This document shows, one piece after another, positions 2,510 through 2,821 of a DNA stretch of 4,459 nucleotides. The notes under the pieces are model-generated. The model was not told the DNA's origin and did no database searches. It saw only the letters and a program-made list of their open reading frames with translations. The stretch's first letter is position 1, and each line of letters begins with the position of its first letter. The stretch is from IMG/VR virus record IMGVR_UViG_3300029234_000155; one strand, written 5' to 3'. Made by a program: the position numbers and the translations under genes. Source of the stretch: a virus. Taxonomy: Duplodnaviria > Heunggongvirae > Uroviricota > Caudoviricetes.

Positions 2510-2817
2510 ATGACTCAAGACTATGAACTGGTTGTGAAAGGAGTCCGTAATTTTGAGAATAAAGTTACGGTAACTGTAGCCTTACAGGACAAAGAACGCT
2601 TTGACGGTGAAATTTTTGACCTGGATGTCGCCATGGACCGTGTTGAAGGAGCTGCGCTGGAGTTTTATGAGGCAGCAGCCAGAAGGAGCGTCCGGCAAGT
2701 CTTCCTGGAAGTAGCAGAAAAATTGTCAGAAAAAGTTGAGTCTTATCTGCAGCATCAGTACTCCTTTAAGATTGAAAATCCTGCCAATAAGCACGAGCGT
2801 CCTCATCATAAATATCT

Positions 2818-2821
<4 letters not shown>
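2510..2821 (+). CDS. ydfR: Hypothetical protein of unknown function (DUF1327-type as I recall), 103 aa, soluble and acidic, embedded in the lysis cassette
   Basis: [111 protein letters not shown] at 2496-2500 is 9 nt before the ATG. It starts 4 nt after the essQ stop, and its TGA stop overlaps the rrrQ ATG (ATGA at 2818-2821). No hydrophobic segment. Confidence 0.85.

What the first reader, a model, noticed from the sequence alone, without database searches (positions are those of the whole stretch)
2510..2821. Uncharacterised soluble protein gene (ydfR) wedged between pinholin and SAR endolysin and translationally coupled to both
The phage 21 prototype cassette is S-R-Rz/Rz1 with no gene between holin and endolysin (from memory). 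Here a 103-codon acidic, non-membrane ORF sits 4 nt after the pinholin stop and overlaps the endolysin start (ATGA), so it should be made with the lysis proteins. Its function is, to my knowledge, unknown. That position fits a lysis-timing modulator or a factor acting on the SAR endolysin or pinholin, though a passenger moron is equally possible.
Basis: partly seen in the sequence, partly recalled or inferred. Interest (0 to 1): 0.62.

Follow-up and report, generated by a model that had tools for sequence, protein, structure and literature searches.

The report
ydfR: passenger gene in lysis cassette
The small gene between the hole-forming and wall-degrading lysis genes is real, but it is the known E. 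coli prophage gene ydfR, and it looks like a mobile passenger of phage late operons, not a part of the lysis machinery.

Summary
A 103-codon ORF (2510-2821, +) starts 4 nt after the essQ pinholin stop and ends in an ATGA overlap with rrrQ. It is E. coli K-12 ydfR (Qin prophage, Pfam DUF1327, E=1e-53).

Only residues 1-74 are conserved. They are predicted to form three beta-strands plus a helix, and evolve under purifying selection (dN/dS about 0.27). The Qin C-terminal tail and the ATGA overlap come from a lineage-specific deletion.

The lysis-regulator reading is weakened:
- Only 100 of 438 phage records with this pinholin carry DUF1327.
- Phage PA28 joins the same pinholin to the same 177-aa endolysin family at the same 4-nt junction without it.
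- Homologs in Citrobacter, Cronobacter and Sodalis sit at tail-gene junctions or after an Rz remnant. Almost all are followed tail-to-tail by a small convergent ORF.

This pattern fits a mobile two-gene accessory module, of which the Qin copy has lost the partner.

A 2026 paper reports that YdfR residues 1-72 bind the catalytic half of RNase E, and that overexpression causes no growth defect. Fold searches assign no function.

Best reading: a cytoplasmic passenger protein. In Qin its translation probably also feeds ribosomes to rrrQ, which lacks a Shine-Dalgarno sequence. The gene is already known, its function is still open, and interest is modest.

The parts
2290..2505 (+). essQ, an S21-type pinholin of 71 codons with a dual start (Met1 and Met4). 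Its last codons carry the Shine-Dalgarno sequence used by ydfR.
   Evidence: PF04971 at E=4e-34 and a PHROG holin match. RefSeq annotates it as a lysis protein.
2495..2500 (+). GAGGAG Shine-Dalgarno for ydfR, 9 nt before the ATG. In phages of the 933W type the equivalent GGGGAGAG serves the endolysin R directly.
   Evidence: Read from the sequence and from the junction comparison.
2510..2731 (+). ydfR codons 1-74, the conserved DUF1327 core. It is predicted to fold as three beta-strands (residues 5-14, 18-27, 33-43) followed by a helix starting at residue 50.
   Evidence: Alignments A1 and A2. AF2 block-mean pLDDT is 74-91 over residues 1-70. dN/dS is about 0.27. DNA homology to other E. coli types stops at nt 206. 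Residues 1-72 are the RNase E-binding fragment in PMC13232886.
2732..2821 (+). The lineage-specific tail of ydfR (codons 75-103) plus the stop codon. It is a remnant of the 174/206-aa form, fused by deletion to the endolysin leader.
   Evidence: P0023 and L097 share the sequence up to ...NKHxRPH and then continue. AF2 block-mean pLDDT falls from 68 (residues 71-80) to 36-41 beyond residue 90, and residues 87-103 are below 50.
2808..2817 (+). ATAAATATCT, a conserved leader without a Shine-Dalgarno sequence, found immediately upstream of this type of endolysin gene. In Qin it lies inside the ydfR reading frame.
   Evidence: The motif ATAAATATC[CT]ATGA is present upstream of R in every DUF1327-bearing cassette where the junction was read.
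2818..3351 (+). rrrQ, a 177-aa lysozyme with a SAR-like N-terminus. Its start codon overlaps the ydfR stop (ATGA).
   Evidence: PF00959. Homology to R21 (3HDE, E=2e-16 over residues 9-174) and to RrrD. Hydrophobic maximum at residues 9-27.
3348..3845 (+). rzpQ, an Rz-like inner-membrane spanin. Its GTG start overlaps the rrrQ stop.
   Evidence: PF10721 and PHROG 312, Rz-like spanin; annotation.
3541..3795 (+). rzoQ, an Rz1-like outer-membrane lipoprotein spanin embedded in the +1 frame of rzpQ. It has an LTSC lipobox.
   Evidence: ORF translation and PHROG 11621, Rz-like spanin.

Best explanation
ydfR is a real protein-coding gene of the DUF1327 family. It is an accessory passenger of lambdoid late operons, not a component of the pinholin/SAR-endolysin machine.

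The functional unit is a 74-residue acidic cytoplasmic domain made of three beta-strands and a helix. At family level this domain is the late-strand half of a mobile two-gene module: a DUF1327 gene followed tail-to-tail by a small convergent ORF. The module lands at gene junctions of late operons: S|R, after Rz, tape measure|distal tail, M|L and I|J.

In Escherichia one such insertion became fixed at the S|R junction. There it took over the Shine-Dalgarno sequence and 4-nt spacing that otherwise serve the endolysin gene, leaving R behind a leader with no Shine-Dalgarno sequence. In the Qin lineage a deletion then removed everything between codon 99 and that leader. This created the 103-codon gene and the ATGA overlap.

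Shown: the anatomy, the distribution, the selection, and dispensability for lysis in related phages.

Inferred:
(a) The protein acts in the cytoplasm late in infection by binding host factors. The only reported partner is the catalytic half of RNase E, possibly through RNA. The likely effect is on RNA processing or decay, not on the envelope.
(b) In the Qin arrangement, translation of ydfR acts in cis to deliver ribosomes to the rrrQ start. The ORF would then matter for endolysin dosage whatever the protein itself does.
For: Identity:
- Pfam DUF1327 matches at E=1e-53, and the window is 100% identical to annotated ydfR.

Conserved core and mosaic tails:
- Five PHROGs share residues 1-77 but differ in total length, from 105 to 296 aa.
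- Alignments show the same pattern.
- DNA homology to other E. coli types breaks at nt 206.
- dN/dS of the core is about 0.27.

Dispensable for lysis:
- The pinholin occurs in 438 phage records and DUF1327 in 100.
- PA28 (933W-like) has S, 4 nt, then the 177-aa R, with no DUF1327.
- Phages 434 and cdtI have S overlapping an R21-type endolysin.
- In 80 IMG/VR loci with at least 92% identical pinholins, 49 carry DUF1327 and 31 do not.

Outside lysis cassettes:
- Homologs lie at M|L (L089, L090, L091), after tail I or at I|J (L087, L111), between the tape measure and distal tail genes in Citrobacter (L105-108), and after an Rz remnant in Cronobacter (L109-110).
- Homology is reciprocal: 33% identity over all 72 residues, E=4e-7.

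Two-gene module:
- A convergent ORF lies between -53 and +49 nt from the DUF1327 stop in the 11 modules measured (8 outside Escherichia, 3 E. coli phages). Only the Sodalis-type loci (L091, L092) lack one.
- Partner family X recurs at S|R (phage Evi), after Rz, and at M|L. Partner family Y recurs at two tail junctions.
- DUF1327 and partner X diverge together.

Deletion origin of the Qin tail and the leader without a Shine-Dalgarno sequence.

Cytoplasmic binder:
- The protein is acidic with no transmembrane segment.
- Residues 1-72 bind Rne(1-597) in a bacterial two-hybrid assay, Rne(1-598) co-purifies, and RNA co-purifies.
- Overexpression causes no growth defect (PMC13232886).
Against: - In Escherichia the gene is always at S|R with a fixed 4-nt junction (84 of 88 loci). 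This also fits a functional tie to the pinholin.
- All DUF1327-bearing cassettes carry the RrrQ-type endolysin and never the R21 type.
- The Cronobacter copy is again next to a lysis-gene remnant.
- The Keio ydfR deletion scored as envelope-defective in a genome-wide CPRG screen (PMC3879167 supplement). I suspect a polar effect on rrrQ, but that is my inference only.
- The RNase E link rests on one paper. The co-purification was done from lysate without nuclease treatment, so it may be bridged by RNA. Overexpression changed few transcripts.
- The homologs outside Escherichia are few: 13 clusters, against about 400 clusters of the S|R type.
- The cis-coupling role is inferred from sequence only.
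Confidence: 0.6

Rival explanations
1. Lysis modulator. YdfR is a cytoplasmic regulator of lysis timing. It would bind the basic cytoplasmic C-tail of the pinholin, or hold or release the membrane-tethered SAR endolysin, in the way the cytoplasmic antiholin RIII of T4 assists control of its holin.
For: - The junction after the pinholin is a near-invariant 4 nt in Escherichia.
- The gene is exclusively associated with the RrrQ-type endolysin in the loci sampled.
- The domain is acidic (pI 4.67), while the pinholin tail [13 protein letters not shown] is basic.
- The Keio ydfR mutant was a hit in an envelope-permeability screen.
- The Cronobacter homolog lies next to an Rz remnant.
Against: - The same pinholin and endolysin family work without it in 933W-type phages, at the same junction.
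- 77% of phage records with the pinholin lack it.
- Homologs sit inside tail clusters, with the same convergent partner genes as at S|R.
- Overexpression causes no growth or lysis phenotype.
- The only reported partner is a cytoplasmic RNase.
- No fold similarity to any known lysis regulator was found.
Confidence: 0.12
2. Partner-directed function. DUF1327 works together with the small convergent ORF that normally follows it. For example, it could be a lytic-phase switch that neutralises or regulates a prophage-expressed moron product. It could also shield the late transcript from decay triggered by the antisense moron RNA, through RNase E. The Qin copy has lost the partner and would be an orphan.
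For: - A convergent ORF follows tail-to-tail in the 11 modules measured, with only the Sodalis-type loci lacking one.
- Partner families X and Y recur with DUF1327 at different junctions and in different genera.
- DUF1327 and partner X diverge together.
- RNase E and RNA association are reported.
- Within the Qin clade most changes are non-synonymous and one allele carries a nonsense codon, which fits relaxed constraint.
Against: - At least six unrelated partner families occur, which argues against a specific protein pair.
- Many active E. coli phages carry DUF1327 without any convergent ORF, including mEp460, BP-4795 and PhiR42_1.
- Co-divergence can be plain linkage.
- No defence-system model matches either gene.
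Confidence: 0.15
3. Decaying remnant. In the defective Qin prophage, ydfR is an evolutionary leftover with no present function. The ORF stays open only because it is short and recent.
For: - Qin is a cryptic prophage.
- The tail was truncated by deletion.
- Qin-clade alleles differ mainly by non-synonymous changes. L021 has a stop at codon 26, and L020, L027 and L101 are frameshifted.
- Almost no reads were seen under standard growth conditions.
Against: - The identical or 97-98% identical gene is present in isolated phages PhiR42_1, HannyBb and mEp460_ev081.
- The core is under purifying selection across the family.
- The full-length Qin-type gene is kept in 1789 of 5426 complete E. coli genomes.
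- The protein is stable and binds partners when expressed.
Confidence: 0.1

Closest known systems
YdfR family / Pfam DUF1327 (PF07041); PHROGs 34145, 2735, 2091, 406 and 1085
   Same: The window ORF is the founding K-12 member. It gives a full-length Pfam match (profile positions 1-93 of 93, E=1e-53) and is annotated 'YdfR family protein' in RefSeq.
   Different: Nothing differs in membership. The family has no assigned function. This work adds three points: only residues 1-74 define it, it is nearly confined to Escherichia and Shigella at the S|R junction, and it has rare relatives at tail junctions in other Enterobacterales.
Lambdoid morons such as lambda bor and lom (from established knowledge of lambdoid phage genomes)
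   Same: These are accessory genes inserted at junctions of the late operon, variable between otherwise similar phages and dispensable for the flanking function. The convergent partner ORFs occupy a bor-like position. PA28 has bor convergent after Rz.
   Different: ydfR itself is co-directional with the late operon. It has no promoter-like or terminator-like site of its own and uses the Shine-Dalgarno sequence that elsewhere serves R. It should therefore be expressed late, not from the prophage.
T4 RIII cytoplasmic antiholin, and antiholins in general (from memory; not compared by sequence here)
   Same: It is a small soluble cytoplasmic protein encoded with lysis genes.
   Different: No homology or fold similarity was detected to anything in the PDB or BFVD. 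No interaction with a holin is known. The family also occurs in tail clusters.
Proteins that bind or modulate RNase E: E. coli RapZ, RraA and RraB, and phage T4 Srd, T7 gp0.7 and phiKZ Dip (from established knowledge and PMC13232886)
   Same: YdfR(1-72) is reported to bind the catalytic N-terminal half of RNase E, as RapZ does. It is a small phage-encoded protein.
Phage 21 / 933W lysis cassettes: S21 pinholin, SAR endolysin, Rz/Rz1
   Same: The flanking genes belong to this system. These are a pinholin with a dual start, a lysozyme with a SAR-like N-terminus homologous to R21, and embedded spanins.
   Different: The prototype cassettes have no gene between S and R. Here R has also lost its Shine-Dalgarno sequence and depends on a leader without one or, in Qin, on the ATGA overlap.

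Membership tests
DUF1327 / YdfR family (PF07041) | Score above the Pfam gathering threshold over the whole model | tested here: met
   179.9 bits against a cut-off of 25, E=1e-53, profile positions 1-93 of 93.
DUF1327 / YdfR family (PF07041) | Conserved core with the residues M1, Y5, L7, V9, K10, V21, E46, G47 and F52 invariant in alignment A2 | tested here: met
   All of these residues are present in the window protein. The AF2 model gives three beta-strands plus a helix, with block-mean pLDDT of 74-91 over residues 1-70.
Lysis regulator (antiholin or endolysin-release factor) | Consistently found together with, and only with, lysis genes | tested here: not met
   The gene is absent from 77% of phage records with the pinholin and from 933W-type cassettes. 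Homologs occur at M|L, I|J and tape measure junctions.
Lysis regulator (antiholin or endolysin-release factor) | Physical interaction with the holin or endolysin, and a change in lysis timing when removed | not testable with these tools
   This needs genetics and biochemistry. The only published phenotype data are no growth defect on overexpression and an envelope-screen hit that was not followed up.
Lysis regulator (antiholin or endolysin-release factor) | Membrane association or similarity to a known antiholin | tested here: not met
   There is no hydrophobic segment. No relative was found in the PDB by sequence or by fold.
Moron / late-operon accessory module | Present or absent between otherwise homologous flanking genes, with a precise junction | tested here: met
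   S, 4 nt, R in PA28 compared with S, 4 nt, DUF1327 ... R elsewhere, with the same flanking gene families.
Moron / late-operon accessory module | The same module found at different genomic positions in different phages | tested here: met
   DUF1327 with partner X occurs at S|R (Evi), after Rz (Cronobacter) and at M|L (L090). DUF1327 with partner Y occurs after tail I (L087) and after the tape measure gene (L105).
Moron / late-operon accessory module | Own promoter and terminator, and expression from the prophage | tested here: not met
   No sigma-70-like promoter or intrinsic terminator lies within 2215-3845. Almost no ydfR reads were seen under standard growth. ydfR is therefore a passenger of the late transcript and not a classical self-expressed moron. 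The convergent partners were not tested.
RNase E-binding regulator | Direct, RNA-independent binding to the RNase E catalytic domain, with an effect on its activity | not testable with these tools
   Published work shows a two-hybrid signal and co-purification from lysate, but no nuclease control for YdfR and few transcriptome changes.
dsRBD-like RNA-binding fold | alpha-beta-beta-beta-alpha topology with a significant structural match | tested here: inconclusive

The most novel reading that the evidence does not exclude
DUF1327 is the conserved, late-transcribed half of a previously undescribed mobile two-gene module of enterobacterial lambdoid prophages. The other half is a variable convergent ORF expressed from the prophage. 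Through RNase E and/or RNA, the DUF1327 protein would manage the conflict between late read-through transcription and the antisense moron transcript. Alternatively, it would switch the moron product off during lytic growth. ydfR in K-12 would then be an orphaned copy that still binds RNase E.
Probability: 0.15. Interest if true: 0.6.

Novelty: already known. Interest (0 to 1): 0.35.

Why it matters
ydfR-like DNA is found in 3647 of 5426 complete E. coli genomes, and DUF1327 genes occur in many Stx1a- and Stx2c-converting phages. The gene sits in the middle of one of the best-studied lysis systems, yet it has no assigned function.

Showing that it is a passenger has a practical consequence. Lysis-timing phenotypes of ydfR mutants must be separated from cis effects on endolysin translation. 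The envelope-screen hit of the Keio mutant should be read with that caution.

If the link to RNase E holds, ydfR would be a late-expressed temperate-phage factor that touches host RNA decay. The recurrent pairing with a convergent ORF points to an undescribed type of module in late operons. That can be tested with simple genetics.

Tried and rejected
- A profile search against PDB sequences found nothing below E=0.29.
- NCBIfam has no model for the protein. PADLOC has no match for YdfR, its long forms or seven convergent partner ORFs.
- Pfam finds no domain in the long C-terminal extensions.
- RNA folding of the two gene junctions is not unusual (z of -0.8 and -1.65), so no structure-based coupling is proposed.
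- A pattern search with the alignment of distant homologs failed, because no stretch was conserved enough. Their contexts were obtained by exact-protein look-ups instead.
- I considered an AF2 run on natural frameshift fusions of pinholin and DUF1327 (for example P0083) as a pseudo-complex. I rejected it because the tool returns no inter-domain error map.
- I searched for a small upstream ORF ending at the endolysin start in other phages, which would have supported conserved coupling. None exists.
- Literature searches for DUF1327 and for essQ/rrrQ returned nothing relevant. A search for ydfR with Qin added nothing beyond the RNase E paper and the antibiotic-survival screen.

Full report
**What is there**

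The window is the lysis region of the E. coli Qin prophage. It is 100% identical to many E. coli chromosomes. In a K-12 derivative the genes are annotated ydfT (3' end), cspF, cspB, ynfU, essQ (named essD by RefSeq in that record), ydfR, rrrQ, rzpQ and cspI.

The ORF in question runs from 2510 to 2821 on the + strand and has 103 codons. Its ATG lies 4 nt after the TAA of the 71-codon pinholin gene. A GAGGAG Shine-Dalgarno sequence sits 9 nt upstream, inside the pinholin gene. Its TGA overlaps the ATG of the lysozyme gene as ATGA.

The protein is acidic, with pI 5.56 overall and 4.67 for residues 1-76, and it has no hydrophobic segment. The neighbours are an S21-type pinholin (PF04971), a phage lysozyme with a SAR-like N-terminus that aligns with R21 (3HDE) over residues 9-174, and an Rz/Rz1 spanin pair. 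No promoter-like or terminator-like site interrupts 2215-3845.

**It is a real gene of a small family**

The protein is a full-length match to Pfam DUF1327 (E=1e-53). The family is tiny and narrow:
- There are 267 and 153 clusters at 90% identity among 5.8 billion proteins.
- There are 91 representatives at 50% identity among 1.84 billion proteins.
- Among 185,579 species genomes, close relatives occur only in Escherichia and Shigella, plus two metagenome bins labelled Veillonella parvula and Bacillota that I take to be mis-binned E. coli DNA.

Within E. coli it is common. 3647 of 5426 complete genomes hold ydfR-like DNA, and 1789 hold the full Qin-type gene.

**Only the first 74 residues are conserved**

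- Five PHROGs share residues 1-77 but differ in total length, from 105 to 296 aa.
- Alignments show mosaic C-terminal tails, with total lengths from 72 to 287 aa.
- DNA homology to non-Qin types stops at nt 206.
- The core evolves under purifying selection, with a median dN/dS of 0.27 over 361 usable allele pairs.
- AlphaFold2 predicts three beta-strands (residues 5-14, 18-27, 33-43) and a long helix from residue 50. Block-mean pLDDT is 74-91 over residues 1-70, and residues 87-103 are below 50.

**The Qin tail and the ATGA overlap are derived**

Longer relatives (P0023 at 174 aa, L097 at 206 aa) share the Qin sequence up to ...NKH(E/D)RPH and then continue.

In every DUF1327-bearing cassette where I read the junction, the lysozyme gene is preceded by the motif ATAAATATC[CT]ATGA, and the leaders shown have no Shine-Dalgarno sequence. 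In Qin a deletion joined codon 99 to this leader (...CGTCCTCAT|CATAAATATCTATGA).

In other phages the gap between DUF1327 and R is 50 to about 1400 nt and can contain reverse-strand genes. No upstream ORF ends at the R start there. Coupling to the endolysin is therefore specific to the Qin lineage. That lineage includes isolated phages PhiR42_1, HannyBb and mEp460_ev081.

The junction with the pinholin, by contrast, is near-invariant. I examined 88 loci fetched by DUF1327 similarity, not by the holin. In 84 the pinholin stop lies exactly 4 nt upstream, two read as 7 nt, and two are cut by contig ends.

**Is it part of the lysis machine?**

The evidence says it is not required.
- The pinholin occurs in 438 phage records and DUF1327 in 100.
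- Phage PA28, a 933W-like Stx2a phage, has the pinholin, then 4 nt, then a 177-aa lysozyme of the same family as RrrQ, with nothing in between. There the GGGGAGAG at the end of S serves R.
- Phages 434 and cdtI have S overlapping an R21-type SAR endolysin.
- Among 80 IMG/VR loci with pinholins at least 92% identical to EssQ, 49 carry DUF1327 followed by an RrrQ-type R. The other 31 lack DUF1327, and in most of them an R21-like lysozyme follows the pinholin directly.

The DUF1327 block behaves as an insertion between S and R. It captured the ribosome-binding site of R and left R behind a leader with no Shine-Dalgarno sequence.

**Homologs outside lysis cassettes**

The exhaustive HMM search found distant stand-alone homologs of 72-94 aa. 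Their homology to YdfR is reciprocal, at 33% identity over all 72 residues with E=4e-7. They occur in Sodalis ligni, Citrobacter freundii, Cronobacter and metagenomes.

Their contexts are:
- between minor tail protein M and tail protein L (L089, L090, L091);
- after tail protein I, or between I and J (L087, L111);
- between the tape measure gene and distal tail genes in Citrobacter (L105-108);
- after an Rz remnant and before the terminase genes in Cronobacter (L109-110).

By abundance, however, the Escherichia S|R form dominates.

**A recurrent partner**

In the distant loci the DUF1327 gene is followed tail-to-tail by a small convergent ORF, with only the Sodalis-type loci (L091, L092) as exceptions. 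Three E. coli lysis cassettes (Evi, PhiR12_2 and Stx2-86) show the same arrangement. In the 11 modules measured, the gap ranges from -53 to +49 nt.

The partners belong to several unrelated families of unknown function, but two of them recur:
- Family X (98-101 aa, phrog_25324) occurs at S|R in phage Evi, after the Rz remnant in Cronobacter, at M|L in L090, and on the short contig L088.
- Family Y (93-95 aa, phrog_10490) occurs after tail I (L087) and after the tape measure gene (L105).

DUF1327 and partner X diverge in step. Identities for DUF1327 and partner X are 65% and 85% for Evi against Cronobacter, and 43% and 75% for L088 against L090. For the four cross pairs they are 25-36% and 62-65%.

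The simplest reading is a mobile two-gene module that lands at junctions of late operons. The Qin copy has lost the partner. Neither gene matches a known defence model.

**What the protein does**

Fold and sequence comparison give no answer:
- Foldseek finds nothing at E<=1e-3 in the PDB or BFVD.
- There are no sequence relatives in the PDB.

The only functional data are published:
[quoted passage not shown] This matches the conserved core.
- That clone gave its stronger two-hybrid signals with RNase E constructs. The full-length fusion signalled only with Rne(1-597).
- Rne(1-598) co-purified with Strep-YdfR from lysate, and RNA co-purified too.
- Overexpression changed few transcripts and gave no growth defect, and the gene is almost silent in normal growth.
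- No nuclease control was done for YdfR, so the contact may be bridged by RNA.
- A Keio ydfR mutant scored in a genome-wide envelope-permeability screen (PMC3879167 supplement). Because rrrQ starts inside the ydfR stop codon, I suspect a polar effect on the endolysin. This is my inference and is untested.
- An overexpression screen listed ydfR with a 3-fold rise in streptomycin MIC (PMC12924614). This was not followed up.

**Best explanation and rivals**

I commit to the following (confidence 0.6). ydfR is a passenger gene of the late operon. Its 74-residue cytoplasmic domain acts by binding host factors, with RNase E and/or RNA as the only candidate so far. It is dispensable for lysis by the pinholin and SAR endolysin. 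In the Qin arrangement its translation probably delivers ribosomes to the rrrQ start, which lacks a Shine-Dalgarno sequence.

The rivals are:
- a true lysis-timing modulator (0.12), supported mainly by the fixed S|R position in Escherichia and the exclusive association with RrrQ-type endolysins;
- a function directed at the convergent partner, with Qin as an orphan (0.15);
- a decaying remnant (0.10), suggested by mostly non-synonymous changes and one nonsense allele inside the Qin clade, but contradicted by family-wide selection and by presence in isolated phages.

**Novelty and score**

The ORF, its position and its family are in public annotation, and one 2026 paper has begun to characterise it. 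The feature is therefore already known, although its function is still open.

As far as I could find, three points are new here: the restriction of conservation to residues 1-74, the deletion origin of the Qin tail and ATGA overlap, and the recurrent convergent module at several late-operon junctions. These make the question sharper and testable, but they do not make the finding surprising. Interest is 0.35.

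Noticed in passing
L003:2501-3040, L109:1226-1765, L090:449-1001, L088:446-992, L087:1636-2160, L105:4001-4553: A DUF1327 gene is followed tail-to-tail by a small convergent ORF. Two partner families recur at different late-operon junctions and in different genera: X (98-101 aa, phrog_25324) and Y (93-95 aa, phrog_10490). Both have unknown function and no Pfam or PADLOC match.
   Followed up: partly
window 2808-2820; L001-L006 immediately upstream of R: The RrrQ-type endolysin gene downstream of DUF1327 has a conserved A/T-rich leader (ATAAATATC[CT]ATG) with no Shine-Dalgarno sequence wherever the junction was read. 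In several phages the leader contains a GATAAAT direct repeat. How R is translated in phages without the ATGA overlap is unclear.
   Followed up: partly
window 1160-1552 and 4062-4453 (+): Two Rfam cspA thermoregulator matches (158.8 and 113.6 bits) cover the 5' leaders and coding regions of cspB and cspI, which flank the lysis cassette. Cold-shock read-through from cspB could explain the reported cold induction of ydfR.
   Followed up: no
window 1900-2070 (-): ynfU is a small putative zinc-binding protein with CxxC...CxxC motifs. It lies on the opposite strand between cspB and essQ, just downstream of a strong terminator-like hairpin at 1818-1837.
   Followed up: no
proteins P0083, P0099, P0052, P0075, P0034: Public databases hold single ORFs that fuse the pinholin to DUF1327. 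They arise by frameshifts near the 4-nt junction or by internal deletions. They are probably pseudogenes or assembly errors, and they carry both Pfam domains.
   Followed up: no
window 2510-2821; PMC3879167 supplement: The Keio ydfR deletion was scored as envelope-defective (CPRG-positive, 30 C, LB without salt). Because the rrrQ start overlaps the ydfR stop, the phenotype may come from altered expression of the SAR endolysin and not from loss of YdfR.
   Followed up: partly
L091:199-3398 (Sodalis ligni prophage, M|L junction): The same tail junction that holds DUF1327 also carries other cargo, including an ORF6N-domain gene and a HicB-like antitoxin gene. This suggests a general insertion hotspot between tail genes M and L.
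   Followed up: no
alleles P0140 and P0172 in alignment A2: Some DUF1327 cores are chimeras of the Stx-phage type and the Qin type, with a crossover between the beta-sheet half and the helix half. Recombination therefore occurs inside the 74-residue domain.
   Followed up: no
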